This document shows positions 13,433 through 14,752 of a stretch of DNA of 26,231 nt, piece after piece. Positions within the stretch are counted from its first letter, which is position 1, and every line of letters begins with the position of its first letter. Under the pieces are notes generated by a model, which was not told the origin of the DNA, ran no database searches, and was given only the letters and a program-made list of their open reading frames with translations. The position numbers and the translations under genes are program-made. The DNA is from a virus, in IMG/VR virus record IMGVR_UViG_3300042731_005304. The stretch is one strand, 5' to 3'.

Positions 13433-14752
13433 TTATCTTTTGAATTGTTTGACAGTATCTATGAAGATGTCTATTTCTTCTTTCGAACTGTATCTGTTTA
13501 GGGATACTCTTACAGTCTTATAAGCTTCTTCATCCGTCATGCCTAATGCTTTCAACACATGAGATGGATTTTTCTCATGCGATGTACATGCAGAACTGGA
13601 TGATATGAAAATACCATGTCCTGACAAGAACTCTATCAGTTCATCACCTATGAAATCTTTGAATGTGACAGATGTTGTGTTGACCATTCTCTCAACATCT
13701 TTGCAATTTATCCTGCATTCAAAGTTAGCAAGCAACTGTTCGTCTAGATAGTCTCTCAGCTTAGCTATCCTAGCGAAATCTAATTTCTCCAACTCCATGA
13801 AAGCTATGTTCATTCCGCTGACAAGCGGTGCATTATATGTTCCTGCTCTTTTATTGAACTCTTGATTACCCCCATGAATTAGCGGGTCTAAGCAATCTCT
13901 GTCTTTTAAGTACAAGGCACTAATGCCAATTGGTCCGCCAAATTTGTGGGCTGTAATCGTCACAGAATCTAAATCGCTTATTGATATATTTTCGACTTTT
14001 CCTATTGTCTGCGACATATCAGAATGGAACAGTGCATCACTTTGTTCTCGCACAATGTTGTGATATTCATGAATAGGTAGTATAGTACCTACTTCATTAT
14101 TAGACGCCATGATGCTAACGAGCAATGTATTCTCGTTGACTATAGATTTCAAGTGGTCAGTATCAACTAGTCCACTTGAGTCTAGTTGAGCATACCGTGG
14201 TATGAACCCGAATTTACTCAGATACTCAACTACTCTCAAGATTGCTTTATGTTCATAAGGAGTTGTGATGATTTCTTTTCTATCACTATCTATATTCTTG
14301 AATGCAACACCTTTTATGAATGTGTTATTAGATTCTGATCCAGATGCTGTGAAGAATATAGTTGCTGCATCTTCTATGTCTAGTCTTGCTGCTATGTTGG
14401 CACGGGCTGATTCTAAATAAGCTCTCACTTTTTCGCCGGCCAGGTGTTTAGATGATGCGTTGCCAATCAAATTCATCATCTCGACTACTCTCGTCTTGAC
14501 AGAGTCTAGCAAAGGATGAGTTGCGTTATTGTCTAAATAAACAAATCTCTCAAGTTGTTTATTGATAATTGCCTCTCTTTCTTCACTTTTTGGTGACGGA
14601 CACAATGGACTGTATGCACTATAAAAACTTGTGCATACATCTGATGGCTTGTATTCTTTGCTGAATTGTTTCCTTATCTCTTCTATCTCTTTTGTATCGA
14701 ATGCTGAATCTTGTCGCCTTTCTTTTTCATTTCCCCATTTGAACACCGGCAT
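13433..14752 (-). CDS. Cysteine desulfurase (IscS/NifS class V aminotransferase family) with a ~70-aa N-terminal extension
   Basis: VYLDNNATHPLL matches IscS IYLDYSATTP. SVTITAHKFGGPIGISALYL contains the PLP-binding Lys. ISSSSACTSHEKNPSHVLKALG matches the IscS catalytic loop [21 protein letters not shown], including the persulfide Cys. Confidence 0.75.
   Translation of the reverse strand: MPVFKWGNEKERRQDSAFDTKEIEEIRKQFSKEYKPSDVCTSFYSAYSPLCPSPKSEEREAIINKQLERFVYLDNNATHPLLDSVKTRVVEMMNLIGNASSKHLAGEKVRAYLESARANIAARLDIEDAATIFFTASGSESNNTFIKGVAFKNIDSDRKEIITTPYEHKAILRVVEYLSKFGFIPRYAQLDSSGLVDTDHLKSIVNENTLLVSIMASNNEVGTILPIHEYHNIVREQSDALFHSDMSQTIGKVENISISDLDSVTITAHKFGGPIGISALYLKDRDCLDPLIHGGNQEFNKRAGTYNAPLVSGMNIAFMELEKLDFARIAKLRDYLDEQLLANFECRINCKDVERMVNTTSVTFKDFIGDELIEFLSGHGIFISSSSACTSHEKNPSHVLKALGMTDEEAYKTVRVSLNRYSSKEEIDIFIDTVKQFKR

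What the first reader, a model, noticed from the sequence alone, without database searches (positions are those of the whole stretch)
13433..14752. Stand-alone IscS/NifS-type cysteine desulfurase with an N-terminal extension
All catalytic features are intact, including the PLP Lys in HKFGGPIG and the persulfide Cys in the SSSSACTS loop. This is a real sulfur-mobilising enzyme, not a generic aminotransferase. No IscU/SufE, thiouridylase or Dnd partner is in the window. Candidate roles are four. One is thiolation of the phage's own tRNAs (s2U34 on the encoded Gln/Glu tRNAs, s4U8). A second is Fe-S supply for the radical-SAM enzyme. A third is phosphorothioate or other sulfur-containing DNA modification. 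A fourth is a PLP/radical-SAM thymidine-hypermodification route like those described for some phages. The ~70-aa N-terminal extension with paired Cys (DVCTSFYSAYSPLCPSP) may be a partner-docking domain.
Basis: partly seen in the sequence, partly recalled or inferred. Interest (0 to 1): 0.6.

Follow-up and report, generated by a model that had tools for sequence, protein, structure and literature searches.

The report
Phage cysteine desulfurase with built-in cysteine arm
A large uncultured phage encodes a real sulfur-mobilising enzyme (cysteine desulfurase) from a rare, phage-only lineage with an extra N-terminal arm carrying an invariant cysteine, and it most likely feeds sulfur to the phage's iron-sulfur (radical SAM) enzymes, though that target is inferred and not shown.

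Summary
ORF 13433-14752 (minus strand, 439 aa) is a full-length type-I NifS/IscS-like cysteine desulfurase. The PLP lysine (K270), the persulfide cysteine (C389, SSSSACTS) and the other catalytic residues are intact. The ~70-aa N-terminal extension is real and conserved. It defines a rare clade of about 20 sequences, all from phage-like metagenomic contigs. Its signature is C-x10-C-P-x-P, always 21 residues before the core, and the CPxP caps a confidently modelled helix. This is the same local motif as the sulfur-accepting cysteine of TusA, but there is no TusA fold. The clade also lacks the C-terminal tail that IscS uses to bind IscU. No IscU, SufE, TusA, MnmA, ThiI or Dnd/Ssp partner is detectable in the window.

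In relatives the gene sits directly beside radical SAM genes in 4 of 11 loci. In three of those it adjoins a pair of SPASM/twitch-type radical SAM enzymes. The same radical SAM modules also occur without the desulfurase, so it looks like a facultative helper.

The best reading is a self-contained sulfur donor for Fe-S loading of phage radical SAM enzymes. tRNA thiolation remains a live rival, because tRNA genes lie nearby in 6 of 11 loci. Phosphorothioation and thymidine hypermodification are poorly supported. I rate it a new variant of a known kind, of moderate interest.

The parts
13433..14752 (-). Cysteine desulfurase CDS (439 aa), type I NifS/IscS-like, phage-specific clade
14543..14752 (-). 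N-terminal extension (residues 1-70). It has a conserved M-x-(F)-x-W start and a helix at 20-31. The rest of residues 1-47 is modelled at low confidence, and residues 48-70 are confidently docked.
14591..14602 (-). C51-P52-S53-P54 (CPxP). The Cys is invariant, always 21 residues before core Tyr72, and caps the N-terminus of helix 56-64.
   Evidence: TusA CPxP precedent: PMC11073785
14633..14635 (-). C40 codon. Semi-conserved first Cys (C-x10-C in 15 of 19 clade members).
13943..13945 (-). K270 codon, the PLP-binding lysine (HKFGGP)
13586..13588 (-). C389 codon, the persulfide-forming cysteine in the SSSSACTS flexible loop
14762..14766 (-). Shine-Dalgarno-like AGGGG, 9 nt upstream of the ATG
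14816..14833 (-). Intrinsic terminator hairpin (GGCGGCC-TTCG-GGCCGCC + T-tract) after the HNH gene. It marks the upstream boundary of the desulfurase transcription unit.
13249..13428 (-). 59-aa ORF with 4 Cys (CPQC...C...CPEF), starting 4 nt after the desulfurase stop. No homolog or family was found. It is a possible co-operonic partner, unproven.
13085..13249 (-). 54-aa predicted membrane ORF, conserved directly downstream of the desulfurase in L004
12785..13012 (-). 75-aa CxxCG...CxxC rubredoxin/zinc-ribbon-like ORF (PknG_rubred 26.5 bits, just below the cut-off), conserved in L004
12589..12852 (-). 87-aa ORF of unknown function, the last gene before the terminator
12472..12493 (-). Intrinsic terminator closing the five-gene desulfurase operon, just upstream of a small zinc-ribbon ORF (12274-12495) and the tRNA-Thr/Asp/Asp cluster
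22349..23281 (-). Radical SAM protein (310 aa, CPNNCKFC) next to a Thg1-like gene. It is the only recognisable Fe-S client in the window and is conserved in L004.

Best explanation
The gene encodes an active, homodimeric, PLP-dependent type-I cysteine desulfurase. It takes sulfur from L-cysteine as a persulfide on the mobile Cys389 loop. This lineage has lost the C-terminal tail that IscS/NifS use to dock the IscU/NifU scaffold, and it has gained an N-terminal arm. The invariant Cys51 of that arm sits in a CPxP helix cap, the same local motif as the persulfide-accepting Cys of TusA. I propose that Cys51, helped in most members by Cys40, acts as an in-cis acceptor or relay for the Cys389 persulfide. 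That would make the enzyme a self-contained sulfur donor that does not depend on host acceptor proteins. Its main physiological sink is most likely Fe-S cluster loading of phage radical SAM enzymes during infection. In this window that client would be the 310-aa radical SAM protein next to Thg1. In relatives it would be a radical SAM gene immediately downstream or a pair of multi-cluster SPASM/twitch enzymes.

Shown: enzyme family, intact catalytic residues, clade-specific architecture, confident docking of the CPxP-helix unit, and recurrent but facultative adjacency to radical SAM genes.

Inferred: persulfide transfer to Cys51, and Fe-S/radical SAM as the sink.
For: - **Enzyme identity.** Pfam, NCBIfam, PDB and structure-model results all agree, and the catalytic residues are invariant.
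- **A discrete clade.** Members score 300-727 bits, against 265 bits or less for bacterial NifS, and all carry the extension.
- **The module is clade-restricted.** An exhaustive profile search of 1.84 billion representative proteins finds the N-terminal module only in this clade.
- **Fixed geometry.** The motif C-x10-C-P-x-P lies exactly 21 residues before the core.
- **Confident docking.** AF2 places CPSP plus helix 56-64 at pLDDT 85-92. In the minimal member P0015, CPKP plus helix 12-20 reaches pLDDT 96.
- **TusA precedent.** The TusA acceptor Cys lies in a CPxP at the start of a helix (PMC11073785).
- **Missing IscU-binding tail.** The clade C-terminal tail is about 16 aa shorter than in all 76 bacterial homologs, and IscU binding needs IscS helix alpha12 and residues 376-404 (PMC2854127).
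- **Radical SAM neighbours.** In L156 the desulfurase overlaps the stop of rSAM-A and is followed by rSAM-B. L001 and L006 carry the same homologous module in shuffled gene order. L004, which is syntenic with the window, has a radical SAM gene directly downstream.
- **High Fe-S demand.** rSAM-B has CxxxCxxC plus seven invariant SPASM cysteines, so three clusters are expected.
- **Facultative pattern.** The same radical SAM modules occur without the desulfurase. This fits a supporting role and not a pathway-specific one.
- **Precedent in viruses.** Fe-S assembly genes are established viral auxiliary genes (PMC7785012, PMC8940887).
Against: - No biochemical data exist.
- The N-terminal module matches no TusA profile or any other Pfam family, and the resemblance to TusA rests on four residues plus local secondary structure.
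- In this window the radical SAM gene is 7.6 kb away in a different transcription unit. The radical SAM gene that follows the desulfurase in L004 is absent here.
- Five of 11 loci show no radical SAM gene in the DNA available (L003, L008, L076, L157, L158), although several of those contigs are short.
- tRNA genes are near the desulfurase in 6 of 11 loci.
- Most phages that carry the same radical SAM families manage without a desulfurase.
- No iron donor or scaffold is encoded nearby.
Confidence: 0.4

Rival explanations
1. The enzyme is a sulfur donor for thiolation of phage or host tRNA (s2U34 on Glu/Gln tRNAs, s4U8, s2C32 or ms2A37). It would hand persulfide sulfur, possibly via Cys51, directly to a host MnmA, ThiI or TtcA, as dedicated Bacillus desulfurases do.
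For: The window holds 10 tRNA genes, including Glu-UUC and Gln-UUG, plus a tmRNA. tRNA genes lie close to the desulfurase in 6 of 11 loci, and in L158 a tRNA gene begins 1 nt after its stop codon. The neighbourhood is rich in tRNA/RNA-related genes: Thg1-like and an RF-1 domain protein in the window, and RNA ligases in L003. A short C-terminus with direct transfer to a thiouridylase is known for Bacillus YrvO/NifZ (from my own knowledge, not tested here).
Against: No PP-loop thiouridylase, THUMP, rhodanese, TusA-E or MiaB-like gene was found in the window or in any relative's flanks. The three loci with the tightest operon linkage (L001, L006, L156) have no tRNA genes at all. tRNA arrays and accessory genes both tend to collect in variable regions of large phages, so proximity may be incidental.
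Confidence: 0.2
2. It is a generic auxiliary metabolic gene. It simply raises the cell's persulfide/sulfide supply and works through host acceptors. The N-terminal arm would be only a docking, stabilising or regulatory element and not an in-cis sulfur acceptor. It might, for example, replace the missing C-terminal helix, or act as an auto-inhibitory cap or redox switch through a C40-C51 disulfide.
For: Viral NifS-like proteins and Fe-S assembly AMGs are already known (BFVD hits to Siphoviridae sp., ASFV and algal viruses; PHROG 12787; PMC7785012 and PMC8940887). Residues 1-47 are modelled at low confidence, as expected for a partner-dependent segment. The gene is sporadically distributed and decayed in one phage (L075).
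Against: The invariant Cys, at fixed spacing in a CPxP cap, is conserved even in the member whose extension is reduced to 27 residues. That argues for a chemical role of the thiol. The clade has lost the tail needed to bind the canonical IscU scaffold.
Confidence: 0.2
3. The enzyme is a direct sulfur source for a radical SAM-catalysed sulfur insertion, and not a general Fe-S supplier. The product would be a thio-modified sugar, nucleotide or protein cross-link made by the rSAM-A/rSAM-B/glycosyltransferase module seen in relatives, or by the radical SAM enzymes of this phage.
For: In L156 the desulfurase is embedded between two radical SAM genes and flanked by glycosyltransferases, and the same module adjoins it in L001 and L006. 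rSAM-A and rSAM-B resemble twitch/SPASM enzymes that act on peptides and sugars.
Against: Seven viral contigs carry the rSAM-A/B module without any desulfurase, so sulfur from this enzyme is not intrinsic to the pathway. The window lacks the module entirely. No sulfur-carrier (ThiS/MoaD-like) or adenylating enzyme was seen.
Confidence: 0.1
4. It is a DndA/SspA-type desulfurase for phosphorothioate modification of phage DNA.
For: It is similar to DndA (253 bits, NCBIfam) and to the PADLOC SspA/DndA models (327/316 bits), and to SspA structure 6M4J.
Against: These scores equal or fall below the NifS score and are well under the DndA equivalog cut-off (480). No DndB-E or SspB-D was found in the window or in any of the 11 related loci.
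Confidence: 0.05
5. It is the PLP component of a PLP/radical-SAM thymidine (5-hmdU) hypermodification pathway.
For: Two divergent thymidylate-synthase-like genes (3615-5335) and a radical SAM gene are present in the window.
Against: The characterised PLP enzymes of that pathway (M6 gp52, ViI gp226) were matched only to generic PLP-dependent enzymes (gp226 to the tryptophan-synthase beta subunit) and were shown to be decarboxylases (PMC8989533). None is described as a class-V desulfurase. The hallmark 5-hmdU DNA kinase and aGPT-Pplase are not detected in the window. The clade also conserves the desulfurase-specific Cys loop, which a decarboxylase would not need.
Confidence: 0.03

Closest known systems
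Type-I (group I) cysteine desulfurases of the NifS type: T. maritima NifS-like protein (PDB 1ECX), H. pylori NifS (5WT2), and NifS of Clostridia and Elusimicrobia
   Same: Same fold (TM 0.94 to 1ECX), 37-43% identity, PLP Lys, long flexible SSxSAC(T/N)S persulfide loop, and all PLP- and substrate-binding residues.
   Different: It has a 60-70 aa N-terminal extension with an invariant CPxP Cys and a C-terminal tail about 16 aa shorter. It carries clade-specific core substitutions: A105, G272, Y306, S377 and F382. It scores below every NCBIfam equivalog cut-off. No NifU/IscU neighbour is present, and it is found only on phage-like contigs.
E. coli IscS with its acceptors TusA and IscU (PDB 3LVJ, 3LVL)
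   Same: The catalytic mechanism is the same, and sulfur is handed to an acceptor cysteine. The acceptor Cys of TusA sits in a CPxP motif that caps a helix, as Cys51 does here.
   Different: Here the putative acceptor is part of the same polypeptide and has no TusA fold: only about 20 residues follow the motif, and there is no PF01206 hit. The IscU-binding helix alpha12 and tail are missing.
Previously noted viral NifS-like proteins and viral Fe-S assembly AMGs: PHROG 12787, Siphoviridae sp. ctiV651 NifS-like, ASFV NifS-like, Heterosigma akashiwo virus NifS-like, and viral nifU/sufE/iscU
   Same: These are virus-encoded class-V desulfurase-fold proteins, generally interpreted as support for Fe-S biogenesis.
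   Different: They share 28% identity or less with this protein. None covers the N-terminal module, and the PHROG profile aligns only to residues 68-438. This clade is separate and much rarer.
DndA / SspA desulfurases of DNA phosphorothioation systems
   Same: Same enzyme class, with comparable profile scores.
   Different: No Dnd/Ssp partner genes are present, scores fall below the family cut-offs, and the N-terminal module is absent from DndA/SspA.

Membership tests
Class-V aminotransferase fold / type-I cysteine desulfurase | Full-length PF00266 domain and a NifS/IscS-like 3D fold | tested here: met
   PF00266 covers positions 1-371 of 371, E 2e-54. The AF2 model matches 1ECX at TM 0.94, rmsd 1.5 A.
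Class-V aminotransferase fold / type-I cysteine desulfurase | PLP-binding Lys in an H-K motif, plus conserved His, Asp, Gln and Arg active-site residues | tested here: met
   H168, D245, Q248, H269, K270 and R415 are invariant in 93 sequences. They align to 1ECX.
Class-V aminotransferase fold / type-I cysteine desulfurase | Catalytic Cys in a long flexible loop with the type-I consensus SSGSAC(T/S)S (not the type-II RxGHHCA) | tested here: met
   SSSSACTS at residues 384-391, with C389 invariant. SufS/CsdA models score only 47-103 bits.
Class-V aminotransferase fold / type-I cysteine desulfurase | Measured cysteine desulfurase activity (alanine plus persulfide) | not testable with these tools
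   Needs an enzyme assay.
IscS subfamily (TIGR02006 / NF010611) | Score above the equivalog cut-off | tested here: not met
   248.8 bits against a cut-off of 643.2, and 240.5 against 548.
IscS subfamily (TIGR02006 / NF010611) | C-terminal helix alpha12 and tail (IscS residues 376-404) that bind IscU | tested here: not met
   The protein ends at about IscS residue 374-378. The clade tail is 23-28 aa (one member 34), against a bacterial median of 40 and minimum of 30. The requirement for IscU binding is from PMC2854127.
NifS (TIGR03402) | Score above the equivalog cut-off, and a partnership with NifU | tested here: not met
   311.8 bits against a cut-off of 530.75. No NifU_N/NifU domain is present in the window or in relatives.
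DndA / SspA (DNA phosphorothioation) | Score above the DndA equivalog cut-off, and co-occurrence with DndBCDE or SspBCD | tested here: not met
   253.5 bits against a cut-off of 480. The PADLOC SspA/DndA hits are generic, and no other Dnd/Ssp component was found. Only 26 kb of the genome is visible.
TusA/SirA sulfur-carrier family (for the N-terminal module) | Acceptor Cys in a CPxP motif at the N-terminus of a helix | tested here: met
   C51-P-S-P is followed by helix 56-64, and in P0015 C7-P-K-P is followed by helix 12-20. The motif is strict CPxP in 15 of 19 members and relaxed (CPSS, CQKP) in the rest. The motif definition is from PMC11073785.
TusA/SirA sulfur-carrier family (for the N-terminal module) | Two-layer alpha/beta TusA fold of about 80 aa, matching PF01206 | tested here: not met
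   No PF01206 hit, and no recurrent Pfam hit of any kind, for 16 modules at E up to 10. Only about 20 residues follow the motif before the desulfurase core begins.
TusA/SirA sulfur-carrier family (for the N-terminal module) | Accepts persulfide sulfur from the desulfurase Cys | not testable with these tools
   Needs a persulfide-transfer assay or structure coordinates. Model coordinates were not exposed.
Selenocysteine lyase | Family-level score | tested here: not met
   SclA scores 62.8 bits against a cut-off of 525.
PLP decarboxylases of thymidine hypermodification (M6 gp52 / ViI gp226) | The PLP-dependent decarboxylase family of M6 gp52 / ViI gp226, together with a 5-hmdU DNA kinase and an aGPT-Pplase | tested here: not met
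   This protein is class V. In the paper gp52 and gp226 were matched only to generic PLP-dependent enzymes (gp226 to the tryptophan-synthase beta subunit), not to desulfurases (PMC8989533). No kinase or aGPT-Pplase was detected in the window.

The most novel reading that the evidence does not exclude
This phage-only clade may be a previously undescribed 'self-accepting' cysteine desulfurase. A minimal TusA-like CPxP cysteine, fused in cis, would replace the separate acceptor proteins that cellular desulfurases need (IscU, TusA, SufE). The phage would then have a host-independent sulfur relay dedicated to maturing, or feeding sulfur to, its own multi-cluster radical SAM/SPASM enzymes. Those enzymes appear to belong to an uncharacterised virion- or nucleic-acid-modifying pathway that also includes glycosyltransferases.
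Probability: 0.3. Interest if true: 0.65.

Novelty: new variant of a known kind. Interest (0 to 1): 0.48.

Why it matters
Cysteine desulfurases normally work through separate acceptor proteins that decide where the sulfur goes. A version with the acceptor cysteine built in would be a compact, portable sulfur-donor design. It would be informative for the evolution of sulfur-relay systems and useful for expressing Fe-S and radical SAM enzymes heterologously. For phage biology, it would show that large phages secure not only the radical SAM enzymes but also the cofactor supply for them. It also points to an uncharacterised twin radical SAM + glycosyltransferase module in phages whose product is unknown.

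Tried and rejected
- **Close relatives among deposited phages.** There is no DNA match. Protein hits are 36% identical or less and lie in unannotated or bacterial-like records.
- **The window's own contig.** Exact look-ups of two edge proteins found nothing on record, so the rest of the genome could not be searched.
- **IMG/VR scan with the clade alignment.** It returned only one true member. The other 65 hits are generic NifS/IscS at 36% identity or less.
- **Metagenome scan.** Hits that seemed to align upstream of the core were bacterial NifS or molybdopterin-oxidoreductase fusions.
- **Word-seeded search with the N-terminal module.** It returned only a frameshifted fragment, P0121.
- **Exhaustive profile search.** No other architecture carries the module. 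P0122 and P0124 are repeat-driven chance hits.
- **Motif-specific DNA pattern in GTDB genomes.** It gave four hits, all chance matches (two in-frame upstream of bacterial NifS start codons, two not in desulfurase genes).
- **Pfam on the N-terminal modules.** A scan at E up to 10 found nothing recurrent.
- **Small co-operonic ORFs and the window's radical SAM against the PDB.** Nothing significant was found.
- **Remnant of the L004 downstream radical SAM gene in the window.** None was found.
- **Conserved small Cys-rich partner downstream.** CxxC...CxxC ORFs recur in 6 of 11 loci but are not homologous to one another. I rejected this as evidence.
- **AFDB fold search.** The library was unavailable.
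- **Geometry of Cys51 relative to Cys389.** Model coordinates are not exposed, so this could not be measured.
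Full report

Yes. The ORF runs from 13433 to 14752 on the minus strand and encodes 439 aa. It has an ATG start with AGGGG 9 nt upstream. A perfect GC-rich terminator hairpin (14816-14833) closes the preceding HNH gene.

Several lines of evidence identify the enzyme:
- Pfam Aminotran_5 covers residues 71-430 over the whole model (E 2e-54).
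- The best NCBIfam models are NifS (312 bits), DndA (253) and IscS (249). All are far below their equivalog cut-offs.
- The best solved structure is the T. maritima NifS-like protein 1ECX (E 3e-71). AHKFGGP aligns to AHKFHGP (PLP Lys270) and SSSSACTS aligns to STSSACTS (Cys389).
- An AF2 model built on 93 homologs has mean pLDDT 90 and superposes on 1ECX at TM 0.94, rmsd 1.5 A.
- H168, D245, Q248, H269, K270, C389 and R415 are invariant in all 93 sequences.

It is therefore a genuine type-I (NifS/IscS-class) cysteine desulfurase. It is not a type-II SufS/CsdA enzyme or a selenocysteine lyase.

**2. The setting**

All genes in the window are on the minus strand and are typical of a large phage:
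- 10 tRNAs and a tmRNA
- class II ribonucleotide reductase
- a Thg1-like gene and an ATP-dependent DNA ligase
- ClpP and a nicotinamidase-like isochorismatase
- two thymidylate-synthase-like genes
- an NS endonuclease
- an RF-1 domain protein
- an NT5C nucleotidase
- a Pol-beta-like nucleotidyltransferase
- a radical SAM protein
- a major-vault-protein/SPFH-like protein

No deposited phage is similar at the DNA level, and the contig itself is not in the searchable collections.

The desulfurase heads a compact five-gene unit bracketed by two strong terminators (14816-14833 and 12472-12493). The unit holds the desulfurase, a 59-aa four-Cys ORF 4 nt downstream, a 54-aa membrane ORF, a 75-aa rubredoxin/zinc-ribbon-like ORF and an 87-aa ORF.

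Pfam scans of every ORF, including small intergenic ones, found no IscU/NifU, SufE, TusA, rhodanese, MnmA, ThiI or Dnd/Ssp partner. A PADLOC scan of ten selected ORFs agreed.

**3. A discrete, rare, phage-only clade**

Against 5.8 billion proteins, 17 clusters score 300-727 bits and cover the N-terminus. The next best hits are bacterial NifS at 265 bits or less, and they cover only the core.

All clade members carry the extension. It has three conserved features:
- an M-x-(F)-x-W start
- a Cys (C40) at C-x10-C spacing in 15 of 19 members
- an invariant Cys (C51), strict CPxP in 15 of 19 and CPSS or CQKP in the rest, always 21 residues before the first core Tyr

An exhaustive HMMER search of 1.84 billion representatives with the N-terminal profile recovered only members or fragments of this clade. 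The only other hits were two repeat-driven chance matches. The module is therefore not a mobile domain found in other proteins.

The clade is almost absent elsewhere:
- IMG/VR holds a single clade member.
- A motif-specific DNA pattern found none in 185,579 GTDB species genomes.

Wherever context is available, the contigs are phage-like. Examples are a tail protein in L001, baseplate gp25 in L156, terminase in L007 and tRNA arrays in L003.

The clade also has a C-terminal tail about 16 residues shorter than any of 76 bacterial homologs. It carries clade-specific core substitutions at A105, K169, G272, Y306, S377, F382 and N419.

**4. What the extension looks like**

AF2 models residues 1-17 and 33-47 at low confidence and a helix at 20-31 at moderate confidence. 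Residues 48-70 are placed confidently (pLDDT 85-92): short beta bridges at 47-48 and 51-52, then P-S-P, then helix 56-64.

In the member with the shortest extension (P0015, 27 residues), C7-P-K-P is followed directly by helix 12-20 at pLDDT about 96. The conserved, docked unit is therefore 'Cys-Pro-x-Pro capping a helix that packs on the core'.

This is the local motif that defines the acceptor site of TusA-family sulfur carriers. In those proteins the CPxP Cys receives the IscS persulfide and sits at the start of helix 1 (PMC11073785; IscS-TusA complex, PMC2854127).

The module is not a TusA domain. No Pfam family is hit, even at E=10, by any of 16 modules, and only about 20 residues follow the motif.

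The tail that IscS needs to bind IscU (helix alpha12 and residues 376-404; PMC2854127) is missing. The lineage appears to have exchanged a partner-docking C-terminus for a cysteine-bearing N-terminus. I could not measure the Cys51-Cys389 distance because model coordinates are not exposed. The in-cis relay is an inference.

**5. Genomic associations**

I obtained 11 clade contexts plus one locus with a decayed copy. Only the desulfurase is common to all of them. Two contexts recur.

(a) Radical SAM genes:
- In L156 the desulfurase start overlaps the stop of a 471-aa radical SAM-like gene (rSAM-A). A 459-aa radical SAM/SPASM gene (rSAM-B) follows it, and glycosyltransferases flank the set.
- L001 and L006 carry homologous rSAM-A, rSAM-B and GT4-like genes next to the desulfurase, in different orders.
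- rSAM-B has CxxxCxxC plus seven invariant C-terminal cysteines, so three [4Fe-4S] clusters are expected.
- L004 is syntenic with the window, and its desulfurase is 61% identical. A 313-aa radical SAM gene follows its desulfurase and the small membrane ORF. That gene is absent from the window, with no remnant.
- The window and L007 each have a radical SAM gene about 8 kb away.

(b) tRNA genes: they lie near the desulfurase in the window, L003, L004, L008, L075 and L158, but not in the three rSAM-A/B loci.

Reciprocal scans show that the link to radical SAM genes is facultative:
- Seven more viral contigs, up to 140 kb long, carry the rSAM-A/B module at 35-44% identity with no desulfurase within 10 kb. 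None of those contigs appeared in the desulfurase scan.
- Four viral contigs carry the window-type radical SAM gene without a desulfurase.
- In L075 the desulfurase has decayed to fragments.

A gene that attaches to different radical SAM modules in shuffled orders, yet is dispensable for them, behaves like a helper that supplies sulfur or cofactor. It does not behave like a pathway-specific catalyst.

**6. Mechanism proposed**

- Shown: the protein is a type-I desulfurase with an intact active site.
- Inferred with high confidence: it forms a Cys389 persulfide from L-cysteine.
- Inferred with moderate confidence: Cys51, with Cys40 in most members, accepts or resolves that persulfide in cis. 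The enzyme would then not depend on IscU- or TusA-type acceptors, which it can no longer dock in the canonical way.
- Inferred with lower confidence: the sulfur mainly goes to Fe-S clusters of phage radical SAM enzymes. This would matter most when the host's own Fe-S machinery may be limiting during infection.

Overall confidence in this combined statement is about 0.4.

**7. Rivals**

- **tRNA thiolation (about 0.2).** The tRNA-rich neighbourhood supports it. No thiouridylase was found, and the most tightly linked loci have no tRNA genes.
- **Generic sulfur/Fe-S AMG with a purely docking or regulatory N-terminus (about 0.2).** The invariant Cys is retained even in the 27-residue minimal extension, which argues against this.
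- **Direct sulfur donor for a radical SAM sulfur-insertion product (about 0.1).** The module commonly occurs without the desulfurase, which weakens this.
- **DNA phosphorothioation (about 0.05).** Only generic similarity supports it, and no Dnd/Ssp partners are present.
- **Thymidine hypermodification (about 0.03).** The characterised PLP enzymes of that route (M6 gp52, ViI gp226) were matched only to generic PLP-dependent enzymes (gp226 to the tryptophan-synthase beta subunit) and were shown to be decarboxylases (PMC8989533). This protein is instead a class-V enzyme that keeps its catalytic Cys. The kinase and aGPT-Pplase hallmarks of that route are absent.

**8. Comparison with what is known, and novelty**

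Virus-encoded NifS-like proteins and viral Fe-S assembly genes are already documented:
- BFVD hits include Siphoviridae sp., ASFV and algal or giant viruses.
- PHROG 12787 matches the core.
- Viral Fe-S assembly genes are described in PMC7785012 and PMC8940887.

'A phage has a desulfurase' is therefore not new. None of those proteins exceeds 28% identity to this one or covers the N-terminal module.

What is new is the architecture: an N-terminal CPxP-Cys arm at fixed geometry, loss of the scaffold-binding tail, and recurrent insertion next to radical SAM genes. I classify it as a new variant of a known kind.

Interest is moderate (0.48). The architecture is distinctive and testable, but the physiological target is unresolved, and the enzyme class itself is ordinary.

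Noticed in passing
window 694-3375 (-): An 893-aa protein combines major-vault-protein repeat and shoulder domains with an SPFH/Band-7 domain, followed by a long coiled-coil and an acidic tail. This is unusual for a phage.
   Followed up: no
window 3615-4433 and 4442-5335 (-): Two tandem, highly divergent thymidylate-synthase-like genes match PF00303 at only E 1e-7. They may be dUMP/dCMP hydroxymethylases, which would hint at modified pyrimidines in the phage DNA. No downstream kinase or aGPT-Pplase was detected.
   Followed up: partly
window 19077-19343 (-), 11183-11518 (-); L004 4572-4818: The phage encodes a tmRNA (tag GEEQFLMAA; GENQFLMAA in the syntenic relative L004) and a small RF-1-domain (ArfB-like) protein. 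Together these form a ribosome-rescue kit alongside the 10 tRNAs.
   Followed up: partly
window 22349-24059 (-); L004 112-2124: A Thg1-like gene (the family of tRNA-His guanylyltransferase) and a 310-aa radical SAM gene form a pair conserved between the window and L004. The radical SAM family matches no curated family or solved structure. It also occurs alone in four IMG/VR contigs.
   Followed up: partly
L001 11238-16318; L006 6444-12369; L156 221-6773; L164-L170 approx. 8700-11800: A conserved phage module pairs two large radical SAM enzymes: rSAM-A of about 450-475 aa (twitch-like) and rSAM-B of about 445-460 aa (full SPASM). A ~270-aa protein of unknown function recurs in about half the loci, GT4-like glycosyltransferases appear where a desulfurase is present, and several copies sit next to tail or baseplate genes. 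The product is unknown.
   Followed up: partly
L075 10001-10619: A decayed copy of the clade desulfurase survives as an N-terminal fragment, a fragment of residues 82-128 and a C-terminal fragment, with an internal deletion. It lies in a phage contig that also encodes a Ro60/TROVE protein.
   Followed up: partly
L077 (Ga0255055_10000754) and L114; proteins P0021, P0030, P0049, P0109: Some bacterial NifS-type desulfurases are fused to an N-terminal molybdopterin-oxidoreductase domain. They are unrelated to the phage clade.
   Followed up: no
L003 5702-5774 and 20143-20216; window 294-367: ARAGORN labels a tRNA with anticodon CUA in L003 as 'Pyl'. It is probably an amber suppressor, which may mean stop-codon reassignment in that phage. 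tRNA-Ile(UAU) genes are present in both L003 and the window.
   Followed up: no
window 12274-12495 (-): The mechanically listed TTG start of this zinc-ribbon ORF lies inside the terminator hairpin at 12472-12493. The true start is more likely the internal ATG at Met16 (MNKTIMKAV...). It matches PHROG 19722, of unknown function.
   Followed up: no
window 14837-15466 (-); L004 8616-9245: The upstream HNH protein (209 aa, with an N-terminal domain of unknown function) is 73% identical between the window and L004. It is better conserved than the desulfurase (61%), which is unusual for a homing-type HNH.
   Followed up: no
downstream of the desulfurase in window, L003, L007, L008, L076, L158: Small, mutually non-homologous CxxC...CxxC (zinc-ribbon-like) ORFs lie within about 1 kb (about 1.7 kb in L003) downstream of the desulfurase in 6 of 11 loci. 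This may be coincidence, given how common such ORFs are in phages.
   Followed up: partly
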